Source: Kiloniellaceae bacterium
GTDB lineage: Bacteria > Pseudomonadota > Alphaproteobacteria > Kiloniellales > Kiloniellaceae
Length of the DNA stretch: 64,000 nt
Direction: 5' to 3'
Assembly: GCA_036570545.1 (NCBI GenBank)
Contig: DATCXZ010000054.1
Location: 1,558 to 65,557 of the forward strand
The position numbers and the translations under genes are program-made. Below are positions 67 to 38,716 of the stretch, piece after piece. Under the pieces are notes generated by a model, which saw only the letters and a list, made by a program, of their open reading frames with translations, was not told the origin of the DNA and made no database searches. How positions within the stretch are numbered: the first letter of the stretch is position 1; the number at the start of each line of letters is the position of its first letter.

Positions 67-576
67 CTACTTCCGGGCCAGAGTAGTTGAATGCTAGGGG
101 CCAGTTACTACCAGACGTCTCCCCTTGTCTTTTCCGGCCTTGGTTTTGCTGACAAATCTGCCGGCGTCCCCAGAATATCCCCAGAAGAACCCGCAAAAGA
201 TCACAAAGGGGGTAGGCCCGGGCGGGCTATCTTTGGTTAACGTTTTCACATCCAGCTTACCGCGTTTCGTACAGCCTCTTTAGTCGCTTGCAGAGCCTGA
301 GGGGAACAGTGCTCGCATCTACCCGACCCCACACCCATCCTAGGAAGGCCTTGAATAGCAAGGGCTATTTGCTGTGGTTGCGCGGTCGATCCGGTTCCTC
401 ACGCAGCCTTCAGGAGACTCTAATCCTATGCACGGACACGTTGTGTCAATTCCGGGACCATTGCTCTCCGGACGTTTTGGGGCCGTTTTCGTTAACCTTT
501 TCTTTCTCCCGCCTTGCGAGGCTCACTCGCGTTCGCCAAGCACAATCATCAACGACTCCTAGAAGAATGGGAAACA

Positions 577-1449
577 ATGGGCAGCCAACCATCTCCTCGC
601 CTCATAACCTCCTCGCTTGCCGCGCCGCAGCAGCCACTGAGCAGTGGCGACGACGAGGTGGCATGCTCCGCCACCAAAGAACGGGCCGCCAAAGAACGGA
701 CCGATGCGCTGCGTCACTTCGATGCCGCCTTTAGCGAGGGCCCTGCGGTGAGCGCCGAGGATCTCAAGGAAGCGTTCCGCCTGCGGTACCTCGTGTATTG
801 CCTGGACCGCGGCTTCGAGGATGCGGGGAGCTGCCCCTCCGGCCTGGAGTACGACGACTACGACAGCCAGGCCTCGCACTGCCTTCTCAGGGATCGCTGC
901 GGCAAGCGCGCACTCGGCACGGTGCGGGTCGTCATGACGACGGGGGCGGACACCGGAGTCGACAGCCTCCCGCTGGCCGAATACGCCTCGGAAGAGAGCA
1001 TGGAGATCCTGCGCAGCCTGCCCGGCGCATCGACAGCCGAGGTGTCCCGCTTCGCCATCACGCGCTCGGCGCGCGACATTCTTCGCCATTCCGCAAAAAC
1101 CGCGGAAGATCGCTTCGGGACACCCGGCGACACGTTGCGGCGCTTCGAGAAGTTGCTGCCCTACATGGCCCTCGGCCTGTTCCGCGGCATCATCCGTCTC
1201 AGCATCCGCCGCGAAGTGAGCCATTGGTGCCTGGCGGCAGAACCCAGCCTGCTGCGGCGCTTACGCGGCCTGGGCCTGCACTTCGAGCCGGCCGGCCCGC
1301 TGGTCGAGCACCGCGGGCTGCGGCAGATCTGCTATGCCGAGGTCACCGAGTTGCTGGCACGAGTCGAAGCCGAACGCCCCGAGATCTGGGATGTCATGAC
1401 CCTGGGCGGTCTCCTGCTGTCGGACGAGCCCGCACGAACCGTCGCCTGA
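577..1449 (+). CDS. PEP-CTERM/exosortase-associated acyltransferase (FeeM-like N-acyl amino acid synthase, GNAT fold), copy 1
   Basis: Motifs AFRLRYLVYC, GLEYDDYD..ASHCLL, AEVSRFAI, LGLFRGI, EPSLLRRLRGLG, GPLVEHRGLRQ. Start placed at ATG 577 inside the 514 ORF. Confidence 0.85.
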   Translation: MGSQPSPRLITSSLAAPQQPLSSGDDEVACSATKERAAKERTDALRHFDAAFSEGPAVSAEDLKEAFRLRYLVYCLDRGFEDAGSCPSGLEYDDYDSQASHCLLRDRCGKRALGTVRVVMTTGADTGVDSLPLAEYASEESMEILRSLPGASTAEVSRFAITRSARDILRHSAKTAEDRFGTPGDTLRRFEKLLPYMALGLFRGIIRLSIRREVSHWCLAAEPSLLRRLRGLGLHFEPAGPLVEHRGLRQICYAEVTELLARVEAERPEIWDVMTLGGLLLSDEPARTVA

Positions 1450-2636: not shown

Positions 2637-2652
2637 TGGCACGCGCCTTGCT
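2637..2652 (+). promoter_or_regulatory. Sigma54 (RpoN) -24/-12 promoter of the PEP-CTERM gene
   Basis: TGGCACG-CGCC-TTGCT matches TGGCACG-N4-TTGCW exactly, 59 bp before ATG 2712. Confidence 0.9.
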
Positions 2653-2711: not shown

Positions 2712-3713
2712 ATGTTAGGCAGCAAGACTCTCAGGCTAGCGACGGTGACGGCAGTAGCGAGCCTTCTCGCCCTGCCGGCCTTCGTTGGCGAAGCGCACGC
2801 GGCGGCCAAGGCGTTCTCGTCCCTCCATGTCGAGGACTTCATCGCCAGCGAGGGCGGCACCCAGTTCGACCAGGGCGACTTCGACAACCTCGGCATCACC
2901 AACAGTGGGCAGAACTCGGCAACGCTGACGGGCTTCGCCGGCGAGGTCTTCGGCGACGCAGGCGCGGCCGATATCGATCCCGACCATGCCTGCGTCGGCA
3001 ACGGCTGCGCGTCGATCCCGATCGGCGACAACAACTTCTCGCAGCAGGCCTTCCCGCCGCCCGACAGCTTCGCCCGCGGCGACTCGCGCCAGTTCGGCGC
3101 GATCATCACCGGCACAGCTGCCAGCCAGGACTCAGTGACCGCCGACACGGTCGCGGGGGCGCAACTCCTGACCTCCGGCGAGACGGGGCTCGGCACCAGC
3201 AACGTGGGAACCGATACGGTCGTCAGCTTCAGCCTGATCGACCCTCGGCAGGTGACCTTCACCTTCGCTGCGAGGGGTACGCTCGATGTTCGCTTGGACC
3301 CGGATTCAGCGCCGGGGTCGAGCACCGGCGCCGACTTCGAGTTCGGCATCACGATCCGCGAAGCGGACGGCGGCGCTCTCGTGTTTAGCTGGAATCCGAA
3401 CGGCACGGTCGACGGCGCGATCGTCGGCGGCACCGAGAACGCCGATGGGGCGAACCTGAACCAGGAGATCTCCCGCCTGTTGCCCGGACAGACGATTGTC
3501 GACACGGGCCTTGGTCTCTTCAGCGCGACCACCGGCCTGCTCGATGCCGGCATAAACTATACGCTGACGATCTCGCACAACTCCTTCGCCCGGGCATCCC
3601 TTGTCCTGCAAGAGGTTCCCGAGCCGGCGACCCTGGCTCTCTTCAGCCTGGGCCTGCTTGTGATCGGCGTCATGGCGATGCGCCGCCGCCGGAGCGACGA
3701 CCCGACGGCCTGA
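2712..3713 (+). CDS. PEP-CTERM sorting-domain surface protein
   Basis: N-terminal signal peptide (AHA|A); Gly/Thr/Ser/Asp-rich body; C-terminal VPEPATLALFSLGLLVIGVMAM-RRRR (PEP motif, TM helix, basic cluster). Confidence 0.95.
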   Translation: MLGSKTLRLATVTAVASLLALPAFVGEAHAAAKAFSSLHVEDFIASEGGTQFDQGDFDNLGITNSGQNSATLTGFAGEVFGDAGAADIDPDHACVGNGCASIPIGDNNFSQQAFPPPDSFARGDSRQFGAIITGTAASQDSVTADTVAGAQLLTSGETGLGTSNVGTDTVVSFSLIDPRQVTFTFAARGTLDVRLDPDSAPGSSTGADFEFGITIREADGGALVFSWNPNGTVDGAIVGGTENADGANLNQEISRLLPGQTIVDTGLGLFSATTGLLDAGINYTLTISHNSFARASLVLQEVPEPATLALFSLGLLVIGVMAMRRRRSDDPTA

Positions 3714-3746: not shown

Positions 3747-3780
3747 GAGGGTGAGCCGTTCGGCTCACCCTCTTTTCTTT
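3747..3780 (+). terminator. Rho-independent terminator after the PEP-CTERM gene
   Basis: GAGGGTGAGCC-GTTC-GGCTCACCCTC perfect 11-bp stem followed by TTTTCTTT. Confidence 0.9.
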
Positions 3781-3789
3781 GCCTATAGG

Positions 3790-5439
3790 TCAGGGCTGCT
3801 GGGCAGTGGGCCGATAGCGACCCGGCGACAGGATGTCGTCGGGGTCCAGCAGGCGCTTCATACCGGCGACCACGTCCCAGTAGGTCTCGCTGCCCTGCGC
3901 CAGGTACGGCAGGAAGGGCGGGCTGACCCGGTAAGGCGGAAAGCCGGCACGCATCATGGTCTCGCAGAGCGCGTTGGCGCAGTCCAGCGCCGCCGCAGAC
4001 TCCGCCTCGTCCTGCAGGTCGTAGGCGATCGTCATGACGGCGCCCAGGGCACGCTCGGTCACCGAGCTGAAGGTGACGAAAAAGTCGAAGTCGTAGCGGG
4101 CGAAGATCGGCTCGGCCAGGCCGAGGAACTCCTTCACTGCCGCGCCGGTGAACGGCAGGACCGGCGGGAACCACAGCAGCCCGCAGCCGTCCTCGGCCGG
4201 GTCGGCCGTGGAGAAGTCGGCCGGCATGCCCGCTCGGTTGCGCCAATAGGCGCCGGCGAGAAAGCGGTGCGAAGGAATGCCGCGGTTCATGTCGTACACA
4301 GCGCGCAGGGAGGCGAGCTTGCTTCGGAGAGCGGCGACGCGGCGCATCCCCGAGAGCGGCCGGCTCAGGCGGTCGAGCATATCCAGCCTGCCTCGATCGA
4401 AGAAATGCAGCTTCCGACGCGGGCCGGCGAGGCGGCGGCGCACCTCGCGGCGCGCGGCGGCGACAACGCCTTTCGAGCCGTAGAGTCCGCCGGCGATCAT
4501 CCAGGCACCGATGCCACCGCTCTTTCGCAAGCCATCGCGGAACTCCTGCGGCAGTGAGCGCCGGTCCGGGAAGCGGTCGCGCGGAAAGCTCATGCCGCCC
4601 GATATCACGCGCAGGTCGTTGCCCATGTGGATGACGCTGCGAACCGTGCCGTCGAGGCGCAGAGGCCGCAGGTCGTCGACGAAGGCCGCGATGTCCTCGT
4701 CCCGCTCCAGCGAGCAGATGAAGAAGCTGTAGGCCTCGGGCTCAGGCATGAGCCAGATGCCGATAGCGGTCACGATGCCGAGGCTGGACTGCACGAAGAG
4801 TCCGTCCAGCGCCGGGCCGATGCCATAGGGAAAGAGGTGGCTGCTGCGCGCCATGTCGAAGTGGCCGAAGCCGGTGCGCAGAACGCGGCCGTCGGCCAGC
4901 ACGATCTCGAGGCCACTGATGTACTGGGCGCGGTTGCCGTAGGGCGTATGGCCGAAGCCGCGATCGAGGATGTTGCCCACGATGCTGGTGTCGGGGCCGG
5001 CCCCGGTGCAGTCCGGCCACAGCGCGATGCCCTGGGCGCGCAGATGCTCGGAGAGCTGGCCCTGGGTCACGCCCGGCTCGATGACGGCATAGGCAAGGGC
5101 GGGGTCGACCTCGCGGATGCGGTTCATCCGGCTGAGGTCGAGGATGACGTTGCCCGCCGTCACCGGGCAGGCATCGCCGTAGCCCCAGCTCTTGCCCCGG
5201 CTGATCGGATAGAGCGGGACGCAATGCTGGGCCGCGGTCTTGACCGCCGCCACCACCTCCGCCTGCGTCGCCGGCATCAGCACTGCGGCGGCGCGCACCG
5301 GCCGGCCGATGGTCGAGCGGGCGTAGCGATCGAGGACCGCCGCCGCGGTGACGACATGATCGTCACCAAGGTCGCGGCGCCACGCAGCGAGCGCGGCTTC
5401 GAGGTTCCCGCCTGCTGGCGGAGCGGCGTCCCCGCTCAT
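3790..5439 (-). CDS. FAD-binding oxidoreductase, VAO/p-cresol methylhydroxylase flavoprotein family (FeeG-like)
   Basis: PLYPISRGKSWGYG, AVIEPGVT, LEIVLADGRVLRTG, DGLFVQSSLGIVT, C-terminal DPDDILSPGRY. Confidence 0.85.
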   Translation of the reverse strand: MSGDAAPPAGGNLEAALAAWRRDLGDDHVVTAAAVLDRYARSTIGRPVRAAAVLMPATQAEVVAAVKTAAQHCVPLYPISRGKSWGYGDACPVTAGNVILDLSRMNRIREVDPALAYAVIEPGVTQGQLSEHLRAQGIALWPDCTGAGPDTSIVGNILDRGFGHTPYGNRAQYISGLEIVLADGRVLRTGFGHFDMARSSHLFPYGIGPALDGLFVQSSLGIVTAIGIWLMPEPEAYSFFICSLERDEDIAAFVDDLRPLRLDGTVRSVIHMGNDLRVISGGMSFPRDRFPDRRSLPQEFRDGLRKSGGIGAWMIAGGLYGSKGVVAAARREVRRRLAGPRRKLHFFDRGRLDMLDRLSRPLSGMRRVAALRSKLASLRAVYDMNRGIPSHRFLAGAYWRNRAGMPADFSTADPAEDGCGLLWFPPVLPFTGAAVKEFLGLAEPIFARYDFDFFVTFSSVTERALGAVMTIAYDLQDEAESAAALDCANALCETMMRAGFPPYRVSPPFLPYLAQGSETYWDVVAGMKRLLDPDDILSPGRYRPTAQQP

Positions 5440-5504
5440 CGCCTGCGGTCCTGGATCTCGAGCCGCGACGACCCGCTTGGGAACGACATGCTCATGCGAG
5501 TCTT

Positions 5505-8453
5505 CTAGCGCCCGGTCAGCTCGGCCAGCAACGCTTCGGCCTTCGGACGCTCGTCGAACGCCTTCTCCTGGTCCAGCAGCGCGCGCAGCTCGACGACGGC
5601 GCCGTCGGTCTCGCCGTTGGCCGCCAAGGCCTGCGCGAAGTGGAAATGGATGGCCGGATTGTCCGCCGCGCCCTGGCGTGCCTTTCGCAGCAGATCGAGC
5701 GCCTCGCGCTTGTCGCCGACCTCGAGCAGGATCATGCCGAGGGTGTCGGCGATCTCCGGCGCGCCGGGGGCGATTTCTGCCGCCTTGCGCGCCGGGCGCA
5801 CCGCTTCTTCAGCCTTGCCCAGCGACATCCGCAGCCAGGCGAGATTGTTCAGCGTCCAGGCGTTGTCGGGCGCGACCTCCAATGCTGCCTGGTATTCCCG
5901 CTCGGCCGCCGGGAGGCGTCCCAGCGCCATGTAGGTTTCGGCGAGGCTGGTGCGCACCAGAAGATCCTGGGGATACTCCATCAGCCAGGCATCCATGGCT
6001 TCCAGCCCTTCGTCCACCTCGCGGGTGGCGAAGAGGGCCTGCACCAGCTCGATCAGCGTGAAGTTGGTCCGGCGCAGCTCGAAGGCCTTGCGGTAGCTCG
6101 CCACGGCGTCATCGCCGCGCTTCTCGGCGAGCGCGATGCGTCCCTCGATCAGCAGCAGCTCGACCTGCTCGGGAAAGTCCGCCTTCAAGGACGTCAACTT
6201 GGCTTTCGCTTCATCCAGGCGCTCGAGCTGGGCCAGGTAGCGAACCTGCCCGAAACGGGCGCGCGTGTTGTTCGGGTCGAGCGCGAGGGTGCGTTCCGCG
6301 GCGTCCAGGGCGTCCTCGAACTGCCCGTTCTCCTCCAGCGCCCACATCAGGTACTCCTGGGCCTGCGCGCTGCCTGACGCCAAGCTCGCCAGGTTCTGGA
6401 AAGCACGCAGCGCGCCGACGCGGTCGCCGCTGCGCAGGCGGGCCTGCCCTACCGTCTCGAGCAGGCCGAGGTGGTCCGGATTGGCGACAAGGGCGGGCTC
6501 TGCCACCTTCAGCGCCTCCGCCGGTCGATCGCTGGTGATGTAGTGATTGCCCAGCATGACCCGCGGCTGCAACGCGTCGGGATGATGCTCGATCGCCTGG
6601 TTCCAAAGCGCTTCCGCCCGCGCGTTGTCGCCGGCCCGTTCGGCGAGGCCGGCCGCGGTCAGCAGCGAGTTCAGGTGGGCCGGATCGGCTTCGAGCACAC
6701 GGTCGAGGACCGCTCGCGCCTCCTCCGTCTTGCCCTCGATGACCAGGATGTTCACCAGGTTGCCTGCTGCCGCCGGATCTTCCGGCTCCCTCTCCACCGC
6801 GCGCGCAAAGGCCTCGTGAGCCTTGTCGATGTCGCGCGTGCTCAGGTAGGCGATGCCGAGCAGCGTGTCGCCGGATATTCGGTCGGGAAACTGCGTCTTC
6901 ATGCGCTCCGCGACCGCCAGAGCCAGGTCGGGCCGCTTCTGCTGCATCCGCGCGGTGAAGAGCTGGGTATAGGCGGTGTGGCGATCCGGCTCCAGCGCGA
7001 TTGCCCGCTCCAGGGCCTCGGCGGCGCCCTCGGGATCGTTCATCCCCTGGCGCGCAATACCAAGGCGTTCCTGGACCTCCACGTCGTTCGGCTTCCGGGC
7101 CGCAAGCTGCTCGAGGTACTTCAGGCCGGCTTCTCGGTCGCCGACGCTGAAGGCTGCGGCGGTGAGCACGTCGAGATAGCTGGTGTGATCCGGGATCTCG
7201 CCGCCCTCAGGCGCGCGGAGGGTGCCATAGGCCTCCTTCGGATAGCCCAGATTGATCATGGTCAGACCGAGGGCGAGGCGGGCCTGATGGTCCTGCGGAT
7301 TGTGGACGAGGTAGCTGCCGAGATGCACGCGCGCCTTCTCGAACTGCTCCAACTGGAACGCGCTGTGCCCGGCAACCAGGAGCGCCTGAGGAAGGTTCGG
7401 AGCCACCGTGAGAACCTGCTCCGCGACGTTCTGTGCCTGCTGGAAATTGCCGAGCAGGAACTCGACGATCGCGTCCTGCAGCATCACCGCGACAACGTTG
7501 GGGTTGGTTCTTTTCAGCTCGTCGACGATACGAGCCGCCTCTTTCAGCTCGCCGAGCGCCAGCAGCGACTGGATGTGACCGATGTGGTTCGCCAGCCGCG
7601 TCGGATCGAGCTGCCTGGCCAGCGCGAAGCGGTCGCGGGCTTCGGCAAAACGCCGCTCCCGGTAGTACCAGCTCCCGTCAACCTCGAGCAGTCTCGGGTC
7701 TTGCGGGTCAATCGCCGCGGCCCGGTCCAGCAGGTCGCGGGCCGCCTGGCGGTCGCTGAGGGCAAGGGCGATGCGTGCTTTGTTCACCAGGGCCTGAACA
7801 TGCGGCCCGTCCTGCAACACGCGGTCGAAGATGGCTTCCGCCTCGTCAAACCGGCCCAGTCCCAGCAGCGCCTCGCCGCGCGCCACAAAGAGATCCCGCT
7901 CCAGCGCGCTGTCGGCCTTGAGCTCCTCGTCGATGCCGGACACCACGGCGTCGAACTCCTGCTGGCCGAGCTGCGAATAGGCCAGCAGCAGATCGAGCTC
8001 AGGATCGCTGAGGCCGAGCTCTCGGGCGCGCAGGAGCTCCTTCTCGGCGGAGCGGGCATCGCCCAGCTTCAGATGAATCCTGCCGAGCAGGAAGCGGGCC
8101 TCGGCATCGTTGGGATCGCGTTGCAGAGCATTTTTCAGCTCGACCCCGGCAGCCGGCAGGTCGCCCTCCTCGAAAAGCTGCTGCGCGCGCTCGAGAAAGC
8201 TGGCGGCGTGAACGGCGGGCGCGGCCCCAAGCGCAAGCCATGCCAGCGCCAAAAGGGCAAGAAAACCGGGCAGCCAGCGCCGCAAGGAGGCCTTGCCCCC
8301 TGCTGTGCCGTTGCCGGCGCCGGGCCGCGTCGTTCCAAGATCTCTACGGATCACCGGGCAGATCACCAGCCGCTCTCCCTTCGTCGGCGAATATGGCCAA
8401 TGACAAACCACGCACTGGCGACCTACAGAGTATAGACAGGGCAATGGCGGCAT
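5505..8453 (-). CDS. prsT: XrtA/PEP-CTERM system TPR-repeat protein PrsT (true start probably downstream of 8453)
   Basis: Signal peptide, then VELKNALQRDPNDAEARFLLGRIHL and TPR repeats over about 900 aa; divergent from prsK/prsR. Confidence 0.9.
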   Translation of the reverse strand: MPPLPCLYSVGRQCVVCHWPYSPTKGERLVICPVIRRDLGTTRPGAGNGTAGGKASLRRWLPGFLALLALAWLALGAAPAVHAASFLERAQQLFEEGDLPAAGVELKNALQRDPNDAEARFLLGRIHLKLGDARSAEKELLRARELGLSDPELDLLLAYSQLGQQEFDAVVSGIDEELKADSALERDLFVARGEALLGLGRFDEAEAIFDRVLQDGPHVQALVNKARIALALSDRQAARDLLDRAAAIDPQDPRLLEVDGSWYYRERRFAEARDRFALARQLDPTRLANHIGHIQSLLALGELKEAARIVDELKRTNPNVVAVMLQDAIVEFLLGNFQQAQNVAEQVLTVAPNLPQALLVAGHSAFQLEQFEKARVHLGSYLVHNPQDHQARLALGLTMINLGYPKEAYGTLRAPEGGEIPDHTSYLDVLTAAAFSVGDREAGLKYLEQLAARKPNDVEVQERLGIARQGMNDPEGAAEALERAIALEPDRHTAYTQLFTARMQQKRPDLALAVAERMKTQFPDRISGDTLLGIAYLSTRDIDKAHEAFARAVEREPEDPAAAGNLVNILVIEGKTEEARAVLDRVLEADPAHLNSLLTAAGLAERAGDNARAEALWNQAIEHHPDALQPRVMLGNHYITSDRPAEALKVAEPALVANPDHLGLLETVGQARLRSGDRVGALRAFQNLASLASGSAQAQEYLMWALEENGQFEDALDAAERTLALDPNNTRARFGQVRYLAQLERLDEAKAKLTSLKADFPEQVELLLIEGRIALAEKRGDDAVASYRKAFELRRTNFTLIELVQALFATREVDEGLEAMDAWLMEYPQDLLVRTSLAETYMALGRLPAAEREYQAALEVAPDNAWTLNNLAWLRMSLGKAEEAVRPARKAAEIAPGAPEIADTLGMILLEVGDKREALDLLRKARQGAADNPAIHFHFAQALAANGETDGAVVELRALLDQEKAFDERPKAEALLAELTGR

Positions 8454-8569: not shown

Positions 8570-10621
8570 ATGGGACTGATAGTCGGATACATAAGCTACG
8601 CGGCTGCGGCCCTCGCCTACCTGGGGCTTGCGCTCTTCTATCTCTGGCGCGGCGGGTGGGGCGGCCATGGCTTCTATCTGCTCGCCGCGGCCCTGCTGAC
8701 GACGGCCTGGGCCGGTCTGTCGTTCTTCGGCCACGATATCATTCCCGACTATGCCGAAGCAGCCCGGCTGTTGCGACACCTGGCGATGCTCGCCTGGGTC
8801 TGGCTCCTGTGGCACATCGTCGCCTCGCTGGAGCCGCACCAGACGAACTTTCCGCGCCGTCTGCTGCTCGGCTGGGTTGTCATCGTCGGCTCGACGACAG
8901 CGGCGCTCGGCCTCCTCGCGGCGCACAGCCTGATCGGGATCGGCTCGCCGCGGCTGTCCGCCGCCCTGGGACTGGTGATCGCGCTGCTGGGGCTCTCGCT
9001 CACCGAGACGCTCTACCGCAGCTATCAGGCCATCGATCGCTGGGGGATCAAATTCCTCTGCCTCGCAACCGGCGGGCTCTTTGCCTACGACATCTTTCTC
9101 TATGGCGACGGCCTCCTGTTCGGGGCGCTCGATCCGGTGTTCCTCGAGGTGCGCGGCCTCGCCCAGGCAGTGGTGGTTCCCTGCTTCGTCATCAACATCC
9201 AGCGCAGCGAGGCGCGTCACTTCGCTCTTGGCCTGTCGCAGCGCCTGGTGTTCGGCTCGACGGTAATCCTCGGCGCCGGCCTCTACCTGGCGCTCATGGC
9301 GGCGGCCGCCTACTACGTGCGCAGCATCGGCGGCACCTGGGGCAGCGCGGTGCAGACCGTGTTCCTGTTCGCCAGCATCCTGCTGCTCATCGCCTTCCTG
9401 CTCTCGGGCACTTTTCGCTCCTACGTCAAGCATTTCCTGGCGGAGCACCTGCAACAGCAGAAGTTCGACTATCGCCAGGAGTGGCGACGCCTGCTGCAAC
9501 GGATCTCGGCCGGCGACCGGGACGAGCCGCTCGATCTCAGAGTGGTGAAGGCCCTGGCCGACCTGCTGGATAGCCCCGCCGGCGCGCTCTGGTACGTGGA
9601 AGAGAGCAGCCTTGCCCTCGCGACGACCTGGAACCTGCCGGTCTTCAGTCTCGCCGGCAGCGATGCAGCGGCGCTCGCCGACTTCTTCCATGCGCACGAA
9701 GAGGTGGTCGACCTGCGCAACGGCAGCCCAGCCACGGAGCCGACCACCGCCGCGCCGCTCTCCGCCGCCTTGGCCGGCATCGACCAGGCGCGCTTCCTGC
9801 TGCCACTGTTCCACCACGACAGGCTCATGGGCCTGGCGCTCCTCGCCGAGCCTCGGGCGCCGCGGGACGTGGACCGCGAGGATCGCGAGCTGGTGACGAT
9901 GGCGAGCCGGCAGGCCGCAGGCTATCTCTCGGAGCAGCGCGCCGCCCACGCGTTGGCCGAGGCACGGGAGTTCGAAAAGTTCAACCAACGCTATGCTTTC
10001 GTGACTCACGACATGAAGAACCTGGTGAGCCAGCTCTCCCTCATCGTGCGCAACTTCGAGAAGCACGGCGACAGTCCCGACTTCCAACGCGACATGCTGG
10101 CGACGGTCCAGTCCGTCGTGGAGCGCATGAACAATCTGATGGCGCGCCTGTCGGGCGAGCCCGACACCGCCAAGATCGAGAGCGTTGCGATCCGGCCGCT
10201 GATCGAGGCCATCATCGGGGAGAAATGCCTGGCAAACGCCGCCATCATGCTTGACTGCCCGCCCGACCTCAGCGATCTGCGGGTCCGCGCCGACACGCGG
10301 CGGGTCGACGCAATCCTGCGCCACCTCTTCCAAAATGCGATCGAATGCTGCGGCCACGACGGCACAATCGTCGTCGGGCTGCGCCGGGACCACAACGCGG
10401 CGGTCATCGAAGTGCGCGATTCGGGCAAGGGGATGGACCTGGAATTCATCCGCAGCGAGCTGTTCCAACCATTCCGCTCGACCAAGCACGGCGGCATGGG
10501 CATCGGCGCCTTCCAGTGCCGCACCTACGCCCGCGAGCTGGGTGGCGACCTGGAAGCGATCAGCAGCATCGGCGCTGGCACCACCATGCGTGTCACCCTG
10601 CCCGTGTTGCGCGAGGCCTGA
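8570..10621 (+). CDS. prsK: XrtA/PEP-CTERM system histidine kinase PrsK
   Basis: Multi-TM N-terminus, GAF-like middle, H-box THDMKNLVSQL, HATPase motifs (DSGKGM, GMGIGAFQCR). Confidence 0.93.
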   Translation: MGLIVGYISYAAAALAYLGLALFYLWRGGWGGHGFYLLAAALLTTAWAGLSFFGHDIIPDYAEAARLLRHLAMLAWVWLLWHIVASLEPHQTNFPRRLLLGWVVIVGSTTAALGLLAAHSLIGIGSPRLSAALGLVIALLGLSLTETLYRSYQAIDRWGIKFLCLATGGLFAYDIFLYGDGLLFGALDPVFLEVRGLAQAVVVPCFVINIQRSEARHFALGLSQRLVFGSTVILGAGLYLALMAAAAYYVRSIGGTWGSAVQTVFLFASILLLIAFLLSGTFRSYVKHFLAEHLQQQKFDYRQEWRRLLQRISAGDRDEPLDLRVVKALADLLDSPAGALWYVEESSLALATTWNLPVFSLAGSDAAALADFFHAHEEVVDLRNGSPATEPTTAAPLSAALAGIDQARFLLPLFHHDRLMGLALLAEPRAPRDVDREDRELVTMASRQAAGYLSEQRAAHALAEAREFEKFNQRYAFVTHDMKNLVSQLSLIVRNFEKHGDSPDFQRDMLATVQSVVERMNNLMARLSGEPDTAKIESVAIRPLIEAIIGEKCLANAAIMLDCPPDLSDLRVRADTRRVDAILRHLFQNAIECCGHDGTIVVGLRRDHNAAVIEVRDSGKGMDLEFIRSELFQPFRSTKHGGMGIGAFQCRTYARELGGDLEAISSIGAGTTMRVTLPVLREA

Positions 10622-10641
10622 AACTATGCTGATTGAACAGG

Positions 10642-12003
10642 ATGGCTGAGCGAAATCCGCCAAAGCTCCTGCTCGTCGAAGACGACCTCGGCCTCCAGCG
10701 CCAACTGGCCTGGGCTTTCGACGATTTCGAGGTATTCCGAGCCAGCGACCGAGCGAGCGCAGAAGCGGTGCTGAGTCGCGAGCGACCATCGGTCGTCCTG
10801 CTCGATCTCGGCCTGCCGCCGGACGCCGACGGGCCGAGCGAAGGCCTCGCCACCTTGCAGTCCGTGCTGCGCGGCTCGCCCGAAAGCAAGGTCATCATGA
10901 TGAGCGGCCAGACCGAGCGGGATTTCGCGCTAAAGGCGGTGGCCCTCGGCGCCTATGACTTCTACCAGAAGCCCATCGCGCTGGACGAGATTCAGCTCAT
11001 CGTCGGCCGCGCCCAGCGCCTCTTCGAGCTCGAGCAGGAGAACCGCAAGCTGGCGCAGCGTCAGGCCGAGGCACCCCTGCCCGGCGTGGTGACCTCGAAT
11101 CCCGATATGCTGCAGACCTGCCGCGACATCGCCGGCCTGGCGACGACCAACGTCTCGGTCCTCATCGTCGGCGAAAGCGGAACTGGAAAGGAGCTGCTCG
11201 CCCGCGCGCTGCACCAGTTCAGCCCGCGCGCCAAGGGTCCCTTCATCGCGGTCAACTGCGCGGCCATCCCGGAAAACCTGCTGGAGAGCGAGTTCTTCGG
11301 CCATGAGAAGGGGGCCTTCACCGGGGCCATCAAGACCACCGTCGGCAAGGTCGAGCTGGCCAACAAGGGCACCCTCTTCCTCGACGAGATCGGCGACATG
11401 CCGCCGGCGTTGCAGGCCAAGCTATTGCGCTTTCTGCAGGAACGCACCATCGAGCGCGTCGGCGGCCATAAGCCGATTCCGGTCGATATCCGCGTCGTCT
11501 CCGCGACCAACCAGAACCTGCAGGAGCTGATCGAGCATGGCCGCTTCCGGCAGGACCTCTACTACCGCATCAGCGAAGGGGTGGTGGATATCCCACCGCT
11601 GCGGGACCGGCTCGAGGATGCCGCGCTGATCGCCAACAAGCTCGCCCGCGACTATGCCAAGGAACTCAACCGCCCGGTCCGCGGCATAAGCCCGGCAGCG
11701 ATGGCGGCCATCCTCGCCCACACCTGGCCGGGCAACGTGCGCGAGCTGCAGAACTGCATCAAGCGCGCGGTCGCATCGGCGGCGGAGTCGACCATCTTGG
11801 CGCGCGACCTGCGGCTGGGGTCCGATCCGGACACCGTCGATGGGCCGCTGACGCTGAAGCAAGCGCGCTTCCTGGCGGAGAGCAAGGCGCTACGGCAGGC
11901 GCTGGCCATCGCGGCCGGCAATCTTTCCGAGGCGGCACGGGTGCTCGACACCAGCCGCCCGACGCTCTACCACCTCCTCAAGCAGCACGACATCGAGCTG
12001 TGA
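10642..12003 (+). CDS. prsR: PEP-CTERM-box sigma54-dependent response regulator PrsR
   Basis: Receiver ([14 protein letters not shown]), AAA+ ([14 protein letters not shown]), C-terminal Fis-type HTH; follows prsK. Confidence 0.95.
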
Positions 12004-17843: not shown

Positions 17844-18980
17844 TCAATTGAAGGTCGGGCGCAGCTTTCCCCTGTCCGCTCCACCAATGCTCTTCAGCCG
17901 CTCCGCGACGCGGCCCATCCTGGCTTTCTGCGATCCCTTGACCAAAATGCAGTCGCCATCCCCGACCAGTTGTCCAATGGCGTCCGCGCAGGCTTTGCTG
18001 GTCGGGTACCAGCGATCGGGCTCGTAGTGCCGGGCCAGTTCGCCGACCGCCACAATCATATCGGCGTGGCGACGTGCGACGATCCCGATATCGCGATGAA
18101 ACTGCAGCGCCCGCTCGCCGAGCTCGCCCATCTCTCCCAGCACGGCGAGGCGACGCTTTGCCTGTGCGGCCGGCGCCAGCTCGCCCAGCGTTTCCAGGCC
18201 GAGCCTCATGGACAGCGGATTCGCATTGAAGCTGTCGTCGATCAGCGTGAACCGCTCCAACCACATGGTCCGGAGCCGGCCCTTCGGGGGCTCGAAGGAG
18301 GCCAAGGCTGCGTTCACCGCCAGGTCCGGGATCTCAAGGCGCCGGGCGATAACCCGGGCGATTGCCACAGCCAGGTCAATGCCCCTGCCCGGCACTCGGA
18401 CAACCGGAGCTCGCGCCATGGCTTGCAGCCGGTCGACGAGGGGGTGGTTGTCGCCAAGAATCACCAAACCGCCCGGCGGCACCGCCCTGATCAGGGCCCC
18501 TTTGTGCTCAGCTACGGCCTCCACCGTCTTCAAATATTGCAGATGCGCCGGCCCTATGGTGGTGACCACCGCGATATCGGGACGGGCAAGCCTCGCCAGT
18601 GTCTCGATATGCGCGTCTCCTCCCAGTGCGTACTCAAGAACCAGAATGTTCGGATAGCCGGCACCGGCCATCAGCTTCAAGGCCCTCAGAGGAACCGTCG
18701 CGTAGAGCCAAAGCCGCGCCAGGTTGGTACTCCTGGTCCAGCCGTCATAGCGCAGAATGGTCTGCGGGAAGCCTCTGTCACAGTTCATGTTGTGCTGCGT
18801 GGAACCGACGCTGCCGACCACGGACCTGGCCACTGGCTGGGTCAGCACCGCTGCAATCATCGCCACCGTCGTGGTCTTGCCGGCCGATCCCGTGACGCCG
18901 ATCACGAACGGCCTGCGAGACTTCACCACGCAAGACGACCAGAATGACAAGTAAGGGACGACGACACGCTGTATCGGCAT
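17844..18980 (-). CDS. Compact MurF-like Mur ligase lacking the N-terminal domain (start uncertain, 18980-19106)
   Basis: P-loop VIGVTGSAGKTTT, PDIAVVTTIGPAHL, LIDDSFNANP, LGEMGELG, ILVKGS. Confidence 0.8.
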   Translation of the reverse strand: MPIQRVVVPYLSFWSSCVVKSRRPFVIGVTGSAGKTTTVAMIAAVLTQPVARSVVGSVGSTQHNMNCDRGFPQTILRYDGWTRSTNLARLWLYATVPLRALKLMAGAGYPNILVLEYALGGDAHIETLARLARPDIAVVTTIGPAHLQYLKTVEAVAEHKGALIRAVPPGGLVILGDNHPLVDRLQAMARAPVVRVPGRGIDLAVAIARVIARRLEIPDLAVNAALASFEPPKGRLRTMWLERFTLIDDSFNANPLSMRLGLETLGELAPAAQAKRRLAVLGEMGELGERALQFHRDIGIVARRHADMIVAVGELARHYEPDRWYPTSKACADAIGQLVGDGDCILVKGSQKARMGRVAERLKSIGGADRGKLRPTFN

Positions 18981-19180
18981 CTGCTTGGCCACCGGTGATA
19001 GAAGGCGGCGTCGCGCCACCACCTTCGCGGCCCAATCTGGCGGTATCGTGGGCGTCGGAAGGCTCCGCCGCCAGTCCCCTTTTAGGGACACCAGCGCGTC
19101 CTGCAAAAAAGGCTGGCATCCGGCAGCGGCTTGGCGGCTACAATCGCCTAGGGACGGGTTGCAGCGGGAGCGCTGAAGCC

Positions 19181-20278
19181 TTGCAAACCTTAAACCGCTA
19201 CGTAGATCAGCTTTCGCAGATGTGGCAGGCGCTGAGGGCCGAAGGGCGCTCCGCCCGCGCCGATGCCGGTGTATCCCGGCCGCACCAGCTTTGCGAGCTT
19301 GTGGCCCTGCGGCTCGGCGAGGGAAAGCTGGAGCCCGCCGACTACTACAAGCTGCGCCTCTACCGTCGCGGTCTCAGCTTCGAGGAAAAGCGCAAGTACT
19401 TTTCCAATCAGGCCATTCCGCCGAGCCTGCTGGGCAACTGGGCCGTCGTCGCCCAGGACAAGCTTCTCACCTACTGTGTGTTGAACAGCCTCGGCATCGC
19501 GACCCCGACCATCCATGCCATCTGTCATTCCGTGCGCGAGTACGGCAGGGCTGTCGGCTTGAAGAGCGCCAGTGCGGTCGCCGAGTATCTGCGCAAGGAG
19601 GCCCCCTACCCCCTTATCGCCAAGCCGATCCGCGGCATCTTCAGCCAGGACGTCTGGCTGCTGGAAGGCTACGACCCGGCGGCCGACAGGCTGGTGACGA
19701 CCGGCAGTTCCTTCACGCCGGAGGAGTTCGCGGCCCACTGCTGCCAGCGGAAGACAGGCTATCTCTTTCAGGAACTGCTGCGGCCGCAGGAGGCGATCCG
19801 CGCGGCAATTAGCGACAGGCTCTGCACTCTGCGGGTGATGCTGCGGGTCGAAGACGGCGGGCCGCGCCTGACCCTGACGACCTGGAAAATCTCAGCCGGC
19901 GGAAACGTGGCCGACAACTACTGGCGCGAAGGCAACCTCCTGGCCAAGCTCGACCAGAAAACCGGCCGCATCCTGCACTGCACGACGGGCCTCGGACCGC
20001 GGTATCGCACGGTCGAGCACCATCCGAGGACGGGCATGCCGCTTGCCGGCTTCCAGGTTCCCTACTACCGCGAAGCCGTCGACCTGGCGTTGCACGCCTC
20101 CACGGCCTTCGCCGACATTCGCCTGCAAGCCTGGGATATCGCCATCACGGATTCCGGTCCCGTGCCGCTGGAGGTGAATGTCGTCGGCAGCCTGTTCATT
20201 CCGCAGCTCCTCAACCAGAAAGGCCTCTGGGCCGGCGATTTCCGCGATCTCGTGCTGACCTACCGCCGCAGCGCATAG
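19181..20278 (+). CDS. Sugar-transfer-associated ATP-grasp protein 1 (start TTG 19181 or ATG 19220)
   Basis: QDKLLTY, IAKPIRG, YLFQELLRPQ, LCTLRV, VADNYW..G, AWDIAITDSGPVPLEVN. Confidence 0.8.
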   Translation: MQTLNRYVDQLSQMWQALRAEGRSARADAGVSRPHQLCELVALRLGEGKLEPADYYKLRLYRRGLSFEEKRKYFSNQAIPPSLLGNWAVVAQDKLLTYCVLNSLGIATPTIHAICHSVREYGRAVGLKSASAVAEYLRKEAPYPLIAKPIRGIFSQDVWLLEGYDPAADRLVTTGSSFTPEEFAAHCCQRKTGYLFQELLRPQEAIRAAISDRLCTLRVMLRVEDGGPRLTLTTWKISAGGNVADNYWREGNLLAKLDQKTGRILHCTTGLGPRYRTVEHHPRTGMPLAGFQVPYYREAVDLALHASTAFADIRLQAWDIAITDSGPVPLEVNVVGSLFIPQLLNQKGLWAGDFRDLVLTYRRSA

Positions 20279-20296: not shown

Positions 20297-21472
20297 TCAC
20301 ACTCTGGGGCGGTTCGCGAAGCCGAGCCCCAGGAAGCGCCAGGCGTCGTCGCGGTTGAAGACCTCCACCCACGGCGTGTCGAGAATACCTCGGCGATGGG
20401 CGAGCTGGTTCACCGTGAGGTCGTAATGCCAGTTTCCTTCCAAGAGGAGCGGCCCACTGTCGGTAAGCGCGACGTCCCAGCCGAGGCTCTTCTGCACCGC
20501 GAAGACCCGGGCCGCCGCCTGAACCAGATCCCGCACCTGATCCCAATCCGGCAGCGCCATCCCGGTCATGCGCGTGCCGGTCAGCGGATGATCATCCACG
20601 TACTGCGGTAGGTTGTTCACCAGGATTGTCCCGCGTCCGCAGAGGCCGGTCTCGACGTCGACCGGCACCACGATGCCGCCCTGCGCCAGGTTGTCGGCCG
20701 GCCCCTTGCCGCCGCCGACCCTGAGGGCAGCCCCCACGACCACCGGCTCCGGCCGCAGGTGCGTGACGACGCGCACCGTGTGAAGCACGTCGGGCATGAC
20801 GGCGGCGAGGATCGGATGCGACCGCAGCCGCGGTTCGATGAGCACGCCGCCGTTGTGGAAATAGCGCCCACAGTGCCGCCAGATGGCGGCCAGATCGATC
20901 TCCTCCCCTCCCGGCAACGTCCGCCAAGCGAGCCCCTGGGGCGCCCGGCTGCCCAGGCTCAGCACGCCCCAGCCCTTGGTTCCGGCAACCGGCTTCAGCA
21001 CGACATCGGCGATCTCGTTCGCTTCCATCCAGCTTCGCAGCGCCCCTTCCGAGCGGATCGTGAGGAACGGGCCCGCAGACTGGTCCTGCGTGACGACGGC
21101 CAGGGTCTTCGACACCGGCAAGCCCGCCTTCGTGGCCACCTCGTTGAACTCGAGCTTGCGATCGACGAGGTGGTGATGCTCAGCCGGATTGAACGCGCAG
21201 AAGACGCGCCAGCTCTGAAAACGGCCTATGTAGGAGCGCTTCATCTCCATCGGCAGCCGAGGGTCAGACAGCCCGAGGTTATAGTAGTCCACCCCCCCGA
21301 TCCGGTTGCTCCAGAGCAGGCGCTGCTGCTCGATAAAGCGCCGCAGGACGGACGTCGGCATTTCGCGATGGCGCCTGTGGCAGCGGAAGTCTTCGACAGC
21401 CTGGGCAGGAATCGCCCGTAATCGCCAAACGACCTTCGCGAGATCTTTCGCGGACACCTTGCCTCCCTGCAT
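20297..21472 (-). CDS. Sugar-transfer-associated ATP-grasp protein 2
   Basis: VDRKLEF, VLKPVAGTKGWGV, LIEPRL..HP, LHTVRVVT, ADNLAQGGI, GWDVALTDSGPLLLEGN. Confidence 0.82.
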   Translation of the reverse strand: MQGGKVSAKDLAKVVWRLRAIPAQAVEDFRCHRRHREMPTSVLRRFIEQQRLLWSNRIGGVDYYNLGLSDPRLPMEMKRSYIGRFQSWRVFCAFNPAEHHHLVDRKLEFNEVATKAGLPVSKTLAVVTQDQSAGPFLTIRSEGALRSWMEANEIADVVLKPVAGTKGWGVLSLGSRAPQGLAWRTLPGGEEIDLAAIWRHCGRYFHNGGVLIEPRLRSHPILAAVMPDVLHTVRVVTHLRPEPVVVGAALRVGGGKGPADNLAQGGIVVPVDVETGLCGRGTILVNNLPQYVDDHPLTGTRMTGMALPDWDQVRDLVQAAARVFAVQKSLGWDVALTDSGPLLLEGNWHYDLTVNQLAHRRGILDTPWVEVFNRDDAWRFLGLGFANRPRV

Positions 21473-24321: not shown

Positions 24322-24453
24322 ACCATGCCAAGCTGGCCGTTCCTCCAGAGGAGACCAGATACCACGGTGGCTTGCAACTGCGTCCCCTGTAACTTCGGTG
24401 AGCATGCCGCAGAGGCTTCCTTGCGCCGTAGCGGGCGGGCCTCGGGCTAGTCT

Positions 24454-25583: not shown

Positions 25584-25701
25584 AGGATTGAATTCCAGAA
25601 GCCTTACGGCCTAACTAGTGGAATCGCGCGCCATTGCCGGCTTTGGCCAGCGGATGCCACCGCTGCGGACGATCGCATCCGGCACTTGTAGGGTTGGAGA
25701 C

Positions 25702-38563: not shown

Positions 38564-38716
38564 AATTCGACGGGCCAAGCCATAGCCCCTGACAGTGAAC
38601 CCCTTCCGTCCGTCAGCGCAACATGGGACGCAGGTCCCACGCAATGCCGCAAGGATTCCAAGGGCCCGAGACGGCGGTTTGCCGCGAAAGGCAGGCTGTG
38701 CTATGCGGTATTGACT

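What the first reader, a model, noticed from the sequence alone, without database searches (positions are those of the whole stretch)
3790..5439. FeeG-like flavoprotein next to FeeM-like synthases: possible N-acyl enamide lipid pathway inside a protein-sorting locus
Seen: a VAO/PCMH-family flavoprotein directly downstream of prsT on the same strand (65-bp gap), 1.4 kb from two FeeM-like genes. Known: in the eDNA fee cluster, FeeM makes N-acyl-tyrosine and the VAO/PCMH-family FeeG oxidatively decarboxylates it to an enamide. Inference: this locus makes N-acyl-tyrosine-derived enamides, and possible co-transcription with prsT ties them to PEP-CTERM processing.
Basis: partly seen in the sequence, partly recalled or inferred. 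Interest (0 to 1): 0.7.

Follow-up and report, generated by a model that had tools for sequence, protein, structure and literature searches.

The report
Tyrosine-lipid oxidase in exopolysaccharide locus
A flavin enzyme built to oxidise tyrosine-like phenols sits beside lipid-amino-acid synthases in a soil bacterium's slime and protein-sorting locus, and the same pairing recurs in hundreds of species, so it most likely modifies an N-acyl-tyrosine lipid whose role in that system is still unknown.

Summary
Window 3790-5439 (-) encodes a 549-aa VAO/PCMH flavoprotein, 65 nt downstream of prsT on the same strand. [quoted passage not shown] Those NAS genes are on the opposite strand, behind an EDSAP-1 PEP-CTERM gene and a terminator.

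The protein belongs to the 4-phenol-oxidising subgroup but is not a catabolic PchF. It keeps the phenolate-binding Tyr/Tyr/Arg triad. It lacks both covalent-FAD residues and carries an invariant Gly-Ala pair at the flavin N5 site. No cytochrome subunit gene is adjacent. At least 150 sequence clusters are closer to it than PchF is.

In 81 related loci, 77 have a FeeM-like gene within 10 kb and 70 have it directly upstream, often overlapping. PrsT is nearby in 51 and EDSAP-1 in 50. More distant relatives are fused to FeeM or to an NRPS C-A-T-TE module.

This strongly supports an NAS-to-flavoprotein pathway acting on N-acyl-tyrosine, as with FeeM/FeeG. Not shown: orthology to FeeG (no sequence obtainable), the enamide product, and co-transcription with prsT (PrsT is convergent in most genomes).

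Verdict: a new, widespread, uncurated member of a known enzyme kind, in an informative context.

The parts
3790..5439 (-). 549-aa flavoprotein of the 4-phenol-oxidising VAO/PCMH subgroup; candidate N-acyl-tyrosine oxidase or oxidative decarboxylase
   Evidence: PF01565 at 108 bits. PDB sequence hits PchF, VAD, EUGO and VAO at E 5e-75 to 1e-57. AF2 model pLDDT 84; the Foldseek top 47 are all 4-phenol oxidoreductases, TM 0.75-0.83. Invariant Y87/Y503/R504 and G146/A147; L or M at 421.
5440..5504 (-). 65-nt prsT-flavoprotein intergenic gap, with AGGA 9 nt before the ATG
   Evidence: Sequence read. No terminator-like or sigma-70-like site there. The same tandem arrangement has 21-65 nt gaps in L001, L002, L055, L061, L075 and L084.
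5505..8453 (-). [quoted passage not shown]
   Evidence: TIGR02917 at 617 bits, cutoff 312.
3747..3772 (.). GC-rich hairpin terminator between the convergent EDSAP-1 and flavoprotein genes
   Evidence: 11-bp stem with 8 GC pairs, followed by a T run on the + strand (sequence).
2712..3713 (+). EDSAP-1 family PEP-CTERM protein (secreted exosortase substrate)
   Evidence: NF041538 at 230 bits, cutoff 100; PEP-CTERM domain at residues 302-327.
2637..2651 (+). Perfect sigma-54 -24/-12 promoter element TGGCACGCGCCTTGC, 60 nt upstream of the EDSAP-1 gene
   Evidence: Exact match, the only one in the window. Fits the sigma-54/PrsR control of PEP-CTERM genes described in PMC1569441 and PMC9850573.
1529..2377 (+). 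N-acyl amino acid synthase 2 (PEP-CTERM/exosortase-associated acyltransferase); the true start is probably the ATG at 1616
   Evidence: TIGR03694 at 259 bits; PF13444 65 bits, PF21926 FeeM 36 bits, Autoind_synth 27 bits.
514..1449 (+). N-acyl amino acid synthase 1 (paralogue, 35-36% identical to synthase 2); the true start is probably near 577
   Evidence: TIGR03694 at 189 bits; PF21926 32 bits.
8570..10621 (+). PrsK sensor histidine kinase
   Evidence: TIGR02916 at 573 bits, cutoff 300.
10633..12003 (+). PrsR sigma-54-dependent response regulator
   Evidence: TIGR02915 at 612 bits, cutoff 503.

Best explanation
The gene encodes a cytoplasmic flavoenzyme of the 4-phenol-oxidising VAO/PCMH subgroup, probably with non-covalently bound FAD. 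It is the dedicated partner of the PEP-CTERM-associated FeeM-family N-acyl amino acid synthases.

Proposed mechanism:
1. The synthase(s) condense an acyl-ACP with L-tyrosine to give N-acyl-tyrosine.
2. The flavoprotein binds the phenolate through Tyr87, Tyr503 and Arg504.
3. It abstracts a hydride from the benzylic carbon to FAD N5, giving a p-quinone methide.
4. Loss of CO2 from the alpha-carboxylate re-aromatises the ring and yields the N-acyl-4-hydroxystyrylamine (enamide). FeeG, CndG and HyeB are reported or proposed to do this.
5. O2 probably re-oxidises the flavin.

The product is a lipid or signal belonging to the XrtA/PEP-CTERM exopolysaccharide system, encoded next to PrsT and the EDSAP-1 surface protein.

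Shown: the fold and subgroup, the active-site signature, the conserved linkage, and the fusions. Inferred: tyrosine as the amino acid, decarboxylation as the outcome, oxidase rather than dehydrogenase, and the role in the PEP-CTERM system.
For: Subgroup membership:
- Best solved relatives by sequence and by fold are exclusively 4-phenol oxidoreductases.
- The phenolate triad Y87/Y503/R504 aligns with PchF Y95/Y473/R474 and is invariant in the family.

Distinct from the hydroxylases and oxidases:
- G146/A147 replace the N5 pairs D-L, A-P or D-P listed in Table 1 of PMC7617285.
- Position 421 (VAD His387) is Leu or Met. Position 413, extrapolated from PchF Tyr384, is Asp or Asn.
- The same pattern holds over 150 cluster representatives: Gly in 118 of 150, and never His at 421. 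Each of them scores above PchF (at least 303 bits against 256).

Genetic coupling to the synthase:
- A FeeM-like ORF lies within 10 kb in 77 of 81 loci.
- In 70 of 81 it is directly upstream on the same strand, with a median 4-nt overlap.
- The Massilia-type partner is a strong PF21926 FeeM match (175-186 bits). It hits the FeeM crystal structure directly at E 8e-11.

Gene fusions (Rosetta-stone evidence):
- FeeM fused to the flavoprotein (P0165, 822 aa; P0294).
- NRPS C-A-T-TE fused to the flavoprotein (P0223).

Literature precedent:
- FeeG and CndG are 4-phenol-subgroup VAO/PCMH oxidative decarboxylases of N-acylated tyrosine (PMC11350588 section 5.2.1; PMC11959600; 'OxD' clade in PMC7617285).
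- Massilia species, including M. umbonata (locus L026 has the module), make N-acyl tyrosines (PMC12479983).

System context:
- True PrsT and EDSAP-1 flank the gene in beta-, gamma- and alpha-proteobacteria in two different arrangements.
Against: - No FeeG, CndG or HyeB sequence could be obtained, so clade membership with the characterised decarboxylases is unproven.
- FeeM's own closest relatives are Patescibacteria clusters. None of the six loci examined has a VAO-type gene within 10 kb.
- The window's two synthases are TIGR03694-type, only weakly FeeM-like, on the other strand and not operonic with the flavoprotein.
- Amino-acid specificity of these synthases cannot be read from sequence.
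- The 81 loci are dominated by one family (Oxalobacteraceae), so the counts overstate independent events.
- Four loci lack a detectable synthase nearby. Two of them are cut by contig ends and a third has only 4 kb of upstream flank.
- No transcript data were usable.
Confidence: 0.6

Rival explanations
1. Same substrate, different chemistry. The enzyme forms the quinone methide of N-acyl-tyrosine but resolves it without decarboxylation. Water addition would give beta-hydroxy-N-acyl-tyrosine, and tautomerisation would give N-acyl-2,3-dehydrotyrosine. Alternatively it acts on an N-acyl-tyramine or on a 4-hydroxyphenylglycine-type headgroup.
For: 4-phenol oxidoreductases are known to give alcohols, ketones, aldehydes or alkenes from one intermediate (PMC7617285, PMC12909556). 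N-acyl dehydrotyrosines exist in Massilia, Thalassotalea and Stieleria (PMC12479983). Nothing in the sequence proves loss of CO2.
Against: Dehydrotyrosine formation is attributed to a different pair of enzymes, the ThiF-like TyzB and the nitroreductase TyzC. This pair tracks the double bond across producers (PMC12479983). I also saw it in the FeeM clusters of Patescibacteria. The Asp/Glu at the flavin N5 site of the oxidases in Table 1 of PMC7617285 (from my own knowledge, the base that activates water in VAO) is replaced here by an invariant Gly, which argues against hydration. The only characterised VAO-type enzymes acting on N-acyl-tyrosine are decarboxylases (PMC11350588).
Confidence: 0.2
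2. The enzyme oxidises some other phenolic substrate of the exopolysaccharide/PEP-CTERM system rather than the synthase product. Candidates are a tyrosine-derived substituent of the polysaccharide, a C-terminal tyrosine of a peptide, or a tyrosine of the EDSAP-1 protein.
For: EDSAP-1 and PrsT are neighbours in about 50 of 81 loci. The locus is full of polysaccharide-modifying enzymes. An NRPS fusion shows that the clade can take peptide-type acyl-tyrosines.
Against: The protein's N-terminus shows no obvious hydrophobic signal-peptide or membrane stretch on inspection (no predictor was run), whereas EDSAP-1 and PrsT are exported. The tightest and most frequent partner is the synthase: overlapping genes in 70 of 81 loci, and direct fusions. 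In 24 loci the pair occurs without PrsT or EDSAP-1 nearby.
Confidence: 0.12
3. It is an ordinary catabolic p-cresol/4-alkylphenol methylhydroxylase (PchF), as automatic pipelines label its relatives, and lies in this locus by chance.
For: PchF is the top PDB sequence hit (E 5e-75). JGI names many relatives '4-cresol dehydrogenase (hydroxylating)'.
Against: Identity to PchF is only about 28% over the whole fold, equal to its identity to every other solved clade. There is no Tyr384-type or His covalent site and no Ala-Pro N5 pair. No cytochrome c subunit gene or aromatic-catabolic genes are adjacent. The context is conserved in XrtA loci across three proteobacterial classes. At least 150 clusters are closer to it than PchF is.
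Confidence: 0.03

Closest known systems
FeeG (eDNA fee cluster), CndG (chondrochloren, Chondromyces crocatus) and HyeB (hyellamide): the 'OxD' oxidative decarboxylases of the 4-phenol VAO/PCMH subgroup
   Same: Same flavoprotein subgroup. Genetically paired with an enzyme that N-acylates tyrosine (a FeeM-type synthase or an NRPS). No solved structure for this class. The expected quinone-methide mechanism fits the conserved phenolate triad.
   Different: Direct sequence relationship is untested. The gene sits in an XrtA/PEP-CTERM exopolysaccharide and regulatory locus next to PrsT and a PEP-CTERM protein, not in an antibiotic-type biosynthetic cluster. The window's partner synthases are TIGR03694-type rather than close FeeM relatives.
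p-Cresol methylhydroxylase flavoprotein PchF (PDB 1dii/1wve)
   Same: Best single sequence hit. Same two-domain fold. Same Tyr/Tyr/Arg phenolate site.
   Different: Lacks the 8-alpha-O-tyrosyl FAD link, the Ala154/Pro155 N5 pair and a cytochrome subunit partner. Carries a basic segment (326-416) about 35 residues longer. The context is biosynthetic rather than catabolic.
PEP-CTERM/exosortase-associated N-acyl amino acid synthases (TIGR03694; Craig, Cherry and Brady 2011, as cited in PMC7293339 and PMC11072679)
   Same: The window carries two of them. Their link to PEP-CTERM systems is already known, and a knockout in Methylomonas LW13 loses the polysaccharide band (PMC11072679).
   Different: In the literature I could search, that link concerns the synthase alone. 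The flavoprotein partner and its adjacency to PrsT and EDSAP-1 are not mentioned in any held paper I read. No NCBIfam model covers it.
TyzB/TyzC-type (ThiF-like plus nitroreductase) N-acyl-tyrosine desaturation pathway (PMC12479983)
   Same: Also tailors N-acyl-tyrosine made by an NAS, and also occurs in Massilia.
   Different: Unrelated enzyme families. It gives 2,3-dehydrotyrosine or oxazolones without loss of CO2. This pair is what accompanies FeeM's closest relatives in Patescibacteria.

Membership tests
VAO/PCMH flavoprotein superfamily | PF01565 FAD-binding domain plus a cap domain with the two-domain VAO fold | tested here: met
   PF01565 at 108 bits, residues 51-190. AF2 model TM 0.75-0.83 to VAD, EUGO, PCMH and VAO.
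4-phenol-oxidising subgroup of VAO/PCMH | Phenolate-binding Tyr, Tyr and Arg (VAO Y108/Y503/R504; PchF Y95/Y473/R474) | tested here: met
   Y87, Y503 and R504 align to PchF Y95, Y473 and R474. They are invariant in 24 family members. R504 is kept in 148 of 150 representatives and Y503 in 127 of 150.
PCMH / PchF catabolic hydroxylase | 8-alpha-O-tyrosyl-FAD (Tyr384) and the Ala154/Pro155 N5 pair | tested here: not met
   The N5 pair is G146/A147, invariant. The position extrapolated from Tyr384 is Asp or Asn, never Tyr; that stretch is not confidently aligned.
PCMH / PchF catabolic hydroxylase | Adjacent cytochrome c subunit gene (pchC) and aromatic-catabolic context | tested here: not met
   The neighbours are PrsT and the EDSAP-1 PEP-CTERM protein, and the whole region is an EPS locus.
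VAO / EUGO / 4EPO oxidases | 8-alpha-N3-histidyl-FAD and the acidic-Leu N5 pair | tested here: not met
   VAD His387 aligns to L421, which is L or M in the family and never His in 150 representatives. The N5 pair is Gly-Ala.
FeeG/CndG-type oxidative decarboxylases (OxD clade) | Genetic coupling to an enzyme that N-acylates tyrosine (NAS or NRPS) | tested here: met
   A FeeM-like gene lies within 10 kb in 77 of 81 loci and directly upstream in 70 of 81. FeeM and NRPS C-A-T-TE fusions occur in the wider clade.
FeeG/CndG-type oxidative decarboxylases (OxD clade) | Groups with FeeG, CndG and HyeB in a phylogeny | not testable with these tools
   None of the three sequences could be retrieved. The attempt through FeeM relatives found no VAO-type neighbour, and cluster names gave no match.
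FeeG/CndG-type oxidative decarboxylases (OxD clade) | Converts N-acyl-L-tyrosine to the enamide with loss of CO2 and 2H | not testable with these tools
   This needs an enzyme assay or co-expression with LC-MS.
XrtA/PEP-CTERM system accessory genes | Recurrent neighbourhood with curated XrtA-system markers | tested here: met
   PrsT in 51 of 81 loci and EDSAP-1 in 50 of 81, both verified with curated models. The PrsT-less loci examined still carry exosortase-A-associated hydrolases 1 and 2 and a sub-cutoff match to the exosortase-A ligase model.
XrtA/PEP-CTERM system accessory genes | Covered by a curated family model | tested here: not met
   The best NCBIfam hit is glcD at 70 bits against a cutoff of 568. 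No PEP-CTERM-specific model matches.

The most novel reading that the evidence does not exclude
The synthase-flavoprotein pair makes a tyrosine-derived enamide lipid that is the missing small-molecule component of the XrtA/PEP-CTERM system. Two roles are conceivable. It could be an autoinducer-like signal read by the PrsT/PrsK/PrsR circuit, which switches on sigma-54-dependent PEP-CTERM genes such as EDSAP-1; the synthases share the LuxI-type fold. Or it could be a membrane lipid needed for exosortase-dependent anchoring of surface proteins to the polysaccharide matrix. Either would explain why PrsT, EDSAP-1, the synthase and the flavoprotein stay together across three proteobacterial classes in two different gene orders.
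Probability: 0.15. Interest if true: 0.85.

Novelty: new member of a known kind. Interest (0 to 1): 0.5.

Why it matters
[quoted passage not shown] What they make there, and why, is still open. One knockout shows a polysaccharide phenotype (PMC11072679).

A conserved, dedicated phenol-oxidising partner narrows the chemistry. The headgroup should carry a 4-hydroxyphenyl group, most simply tyrosine, and it is oxidatively tailored. This gives a simple two-gene experiment to identify the molecule.

The work also defines a large clade of 4-phenol flavoenzymes: at least 150 clusters at 50% identity and at least 363 species for the close family. The clade has a distinctive flavin site (Gly-Ala/Ser, with no covalent link). 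Pipelines currently label it '4-cresol dehydrogenase' or a generic oxidoreductase, and no structure exists for the decarboxylase class (PMC11350588).

Tried and rejected
1. Direct comparison with FeeG, CndG or HyeB was not possible.
   - The CndG paper (PMC2857064) and Craig 2011 (PMC3187218) are not held.
   - No supplement is held for the hyellamide paper, and the supplement of PMC7617285 has no OxD data.

2. I tried to reach a FeeG proxy through FeeM.
   - I rebuilt a 167-aa FeeM fragment from the PDB alignment and searched with it.
   - Its relatives are in Patescibacteria. Their clusters hold GDSL lipases, MacAB-like efflux, a nitroreductase-like protein, ThiF, an acyltransferase, a PPTase, an ACP and FeeM.
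   - None of the six loci examined has a VAO-type gene within 10 kb.

3. Naming distant representatives through cluster look-ups returned only generic or PchF-type names.

4. Transcript evidence for co-transcription with prsT could not be obtained. The runs holding the sequence are low-coverage soil metagenomes of unknown library type, with 200-600-nt contigs.

5. My first tblastn survey missed the Massilia-type synthases, which are too divergent from TIGR03694. It was corrected with an HMM and Pfam.

6. My first neighbour-distance script mis-handled overlapping stop-to-stop ORFs and was redone.

7. I considered that the Stieleria 'putative oxidoreductase' next to a PEP-CTERM gene might be a homologue. 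I rejected this: it is a nitroreductase-family protein (PMC12479983).

8. I looked for an exosortase gene among the large window ORFs and found none.
Full report
**What is there**

Window 3790..5439 on the minus strand is a 549-codon ORF. It starts at the first possible in-frame start codon and has the high third-position G+C of real genes in this 66% G+C window. It carries a PF01565 FAD_binding_4 domain (108 bits).

The gene upstream on the same strand (5505..8453) is PrsT (TIGR02917, 617 bits against a cutoff of 312). The gap between the two is exactly 65 nt, with an AGGA 9 nt before the ATG. The consensus scan found no terminator-like or sigma-70-like site in the gap.

Downstream, a strong hairpin (3747-3772) separates the gene from a convergent gene for an EDSAP-1 family PEP-CTERM protein (2712..3713 +, NF041538 at 230 bits). 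That gene is preceded by the only perfect sigma-54 -24/-12 element in the window (2637-2651).

Further left, also on the plus strand, are two paralogous N-acyl amino acid synthase genes. Both match TIGR03694 (189 and 259 bits) and both pass the Pfam FeeM model weakly. PrsK and PrsR follow on the other side of PrsT.

The rest of the window, up to about 52.5 kb, is an XrtA-type exopolysaccharide locus. It contains:
- the stp1 and stp3 glycosyltransferases;
- the XrtA-associated tyrosine autokinase;
- the chain-length determinant;
- the EpsB_2 priming transferase;
- the export protein;
- a flippase, a Wzy-like polymerase and two sulfotransferases.

I found no exosortase gene among the ORFs scanned. 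The correction is that the synthase genes are convergent with the flavoprotein gene, not co-oriented.

**What kind of flavoprotein**

By sequence, the best solved relatives are PchF (E 5e-75), vanillyl-alcohol dehydrogenase (VAD), the Novosphingobium VAO, EUGO and VAO. There is then a large drop to D-lactate dehydrogenases.

An AlphaFold model built on 24 family sequences has pLDDT 84 and pTM 0.85. It matches 47 PDB chains, all of them 4-phenol oxidoreductases, at TM 0.75-0.83. Identity is 25-30% to every one of them. The protein is thus in the 4-phenol-oxidising subgroup but roughly equidistant from all structurally known clades.

From the printed alignments:
- Y87, Y503 and R504 correspond to the phenolate-binding PchF Y95, Y473 and R474.
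- The flavin-N5 pair is G146/A147. Table 1 of PMC7617285 gives D170/L171 for VAO, A154/P155 for PCMH and D150/P151 for VAD.
- VAD His387, the covalent link, aligns with L421.

In the 24-sequence family alignment the triad and G146/A147 are invariant. Position 421 is Leu or Met. The position extrapolated from PchF Tyr384 is Asp or Asn. Covalent flavinylation of either known type is therefore unlikely.

The acidic residue that sits at the flavin N5 site of the oxidases (Table 1 of PMC7617285) is missing; from my own knowledge, that residue activates water in VAO. Segment 326-416 is about 35 residues longer than in PchF, helical in the model, and consistently basic (15-21 Lys+Arg against 2-9 Asp+Glu). 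The N-terminus shows no hydrophobic signal-peptide-like stretch on inspection (no predictor was run), so the enzyme is probably cytoplasmic.

**Comparative genomics**

Homologues are plentiful. They are 82-50% identical over the full length, are mostly unnamed, and are often called '4-cresol dehydrogenase' by JGI. A pattern scan of one genome per species found 363 encoding stretches, and 80 loci were kept.

In Nitrosococcus watsonii the order is the same as in the window: PrsT, a 65-nt gap, the flavoprotein, a convergent EDSAP-1 gene, then two TIGR03694 genes. The closest metagenomic relative has full synteny with the window.

In Massilia and Telluria a gene with a strong Pfam FeeM match (175-186 bits) lies immediately upstream on the same strand. 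It abuts the flavoprotein gene or overlaps it by 4 nt. PrsT is convergent just downstream and EDSAP-1 is divergent just upstream. That FeeM-type protein hits the FeeM crystal structure directly (E 8e-11).

Counts over 81 loci:

| Feature | Loci |
|---|---|
| FeeM-like ORF within 10 kb | 77 |
| FeeM-like ORF directly upstream, same strand | 70 |
| PrsT nearby | 51 |
| PrsT convergent | 45 |
| PrsT tandem, as in the window | 5 |
| EDSAP-1 nearby | 50 |

Of the four loci without a detectable synthase, two are cut at the contig edge and one has only 4 kb of upstream flank. In 24 loci the pair lacks PrsT and EDSAP-1. In the example examined it still lies among exosortase-A-associated hydrolases, a ligase-like gene scoring below that family's cutoff, an asparagine-synthase-like amidotransferase gene and glycosyltransferases.

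Most loci are Oxalobacteraceae, so the counts are not independent events. The linkage does recur in gamma-, beta- and alpha-proteobacteria with different gene orders, which is the stronger argument.

In the seven tandem-type loci (the window, L084 and five of the 81) the PrsT-flavoprotein gap is 21-65 nt. Co-transcription in the window is therefore plausible, but it is not the conserved feature.

**The wider clade**

Searching 1.84 billion cluster representatives gave 1393 proteins at E below 1e-30. The whole close family collapses into one representative. The next 149 are 31-49% identical over the full length and score 528-303 bits, all above PchF's 256 bits. At least 150 clusters are therefore closer to the window protein than any solved enzyme.

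Across these representatives:
- position 146 is Gly in 118;
- position 147 is Ala, Ser or Gly, apart from one Thr, and never Pro or Leu;
- position 421 is hydrophobic and never His;
- Arg504 is kept in 148.

Several are fusions:
- FeeM plus flavoprotein (P0165, 822 aa, a Planctomycetota MAG; P0294);
- an NRPS Condensation-Adenylation-PCP-Thioesterase module plus flavoprotein (P0223);
- a 7TM region plus methyltransferase plus flavoprotein (P0166, P0173).

Fusion to the enzyme that makes an N-acyl amino acid, and to a terminal NRPS module, is independent evidence that the clade works on N-acylated amino acids with a free C-terminal carboxylate. That is exactly the FeeG/CndG situation.

**Literature**

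FeeG is proposed, and CndG shown, to convert N-acylated tyrosine to the enamide or styryl product by decarboxylative oxidation. HyeB was found with FeeG as the query (PMC11959600; PMC8762209). Both FeeG and CndG are assigned to the 4-phenol subgroup of VAO/PCMH. The proposed mechanism is a quinone methide that acts as the electron sink for decarboxylation, and no structure exists for this class (PMC11350588). A recent family tree shows a separate 'OxD' clade (PMC7617285).

The link between N-acyl amino acid synthases and PEP-CTERM systems is known (Craig et al. 2011, as cited in PMC7293339 and PMC11072679). [quoted passage not shown]

A 2025 comparative study of N-acyl-tyrosine producers, including Massilia, attributes the 2,3-double bond to a ThiF-like plus nitroreductase pair. 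It does not mention a VAO-type enzyme, FeeG or PEP-CTERM (PMC12479983). No NCBIfam model covers the flavoprotein. I could not read Craig 2011 itself, so I cannot exclude that it mentions FeeG homologues.

**Interpretation**

The most likely function is a dedicated tailoring oxidase for the N-acyl-tyrosine made by the neighbouring synthases. Oxidative decarboxylation to the enamide is the best-precedented outcome.

Confidence that the enzyme acts on the synthase product is about 0.7. Confidence that the outcome is the decarboxylated enamide specifically is about 0.45.

The alternatives, with their approximate confidence, are:
- the same substrate with different chemistry (0.2);
- another phenolic substrate of the system (0.12);
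- a catabolic PchF (0.03).

What the product does in the PEP-CTERM system is unknown. The persistent company of PrsT and EDSAP-1 invites the idea of a signal for the PrsK/PrsR circuit or of a lipid needed for protein anchoring, but nothing here tests that.

**Limits**

- No FeeG, CndG or HyeB sequence was available.
- There is no biochemistry and no transcript data.
- Residue mapping around Tyr384 rests on an unaligned stretch.
- The locus counts are taxonomically skewed.

Noticed in passing
L085-L090 (Patescibacteria contigs carrying FeeM relatives): The crystallised FeeM (PDB 2g0b) has its closest relatives (58-70% identity) in Candidatus Kaiserbacteria, Paceibacterota and other Patescibacteria MAGs. 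They sit in a conserved cluster of two GDSL lipases, MacAB-like efflux, a nitroreductase-like protein, ThiF, a PlsC-type acyltransferase, a PPTase, an ACP and FeeM. None has a VAO-type gene within 10 kb. The original fee clone may therefore come from a CPR bacterium, and these clusters look like TyzB/TyzC-type desaturation pathways.
   Followed up: partly
P0165, P0294, P0223, P0166, P0173 (distant representatives): Natural fusions of this flavoprotein clade occur. One type is FeeM plus flavoprotein. A second is NRPS C-A-T-TE plus flavoprotein. A third is a histidine-kinase-type 7TM region plus a methyltransferase plus the flavoprotein, which is membrane-embedded and unexplained.
   Followed up: partly
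window 3790-5439 relatives: Many relatives are named '4-cresol dehydrogenase (hydroxylating)' by JGI, or just 'FAD-binding oxidoreductase' by NCBI. The PchF label is very probably a systematic mis-annotation of this clade.
   Followed up: yes
window 4191-4463 (residues 326-416 of the flavoprotein): This family-specific segment is about 35 residues longer than in PchF, helical in the model and strongly basic in all 24 aligned members. It could be a membrane-surface or ACP-docking element; this was not tested.
   Followed up: partly
window 52569-55251 (+): A mannose-1-phosphate guanylyltransferase/isomerase profile is split between two ORFs. Profile positions 1-351 match 52569-53816 and positions 339-466 match 54814-55251. 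An isoprenyl (undecaprenyl-type) diphosphate synthase gene (53817-54722) lies between them.
   Followed up: no
window 21724-24987 (-) and 36212-39283 (-): Two very long ORFs (1087 and 1023 aa) have no NCBIfam match, and the first also has no Pfam match. The first overlaps a sulfotransferase gene on the other strand (24451-25422). They may be spurious high-G+C ORFs or large unknown proteins.
   Followed up: no
window 18896-20278 (+), 20297-21472 (-), 25615-26796 (+), 24451-25422 (+), 35136-36563 (-): The polysaccharide locus carries three ATP-grasp/RimK-like ligase genes and two sulfotransferase genes. This hints at an amino-acid-decorated and sulfated polymer.
   Followed up: no
window 1-64000: No exosortase (XrtA/EpsH) gene was found among the ORFs scanned, although PrsK, PrsR, PrsT and many XrtA-associated markers are present. 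In the syntenic contig L084 the exosortase-A-associated hydrolase 1 gene lies just beyond the synthases, which corresponds to just off the window's left edge.
   Followed up: partly
L026 (Pseudoduganella/Massilia umbonata): This species is reported to make saturated N-acyl tyrosines (PMC12479983). It carries the FeeM-flavoprotein-PrsT-EDSAP-1 module, so it is a ready test organism. Enamide products may have been overlooked there.
   Followed up: no
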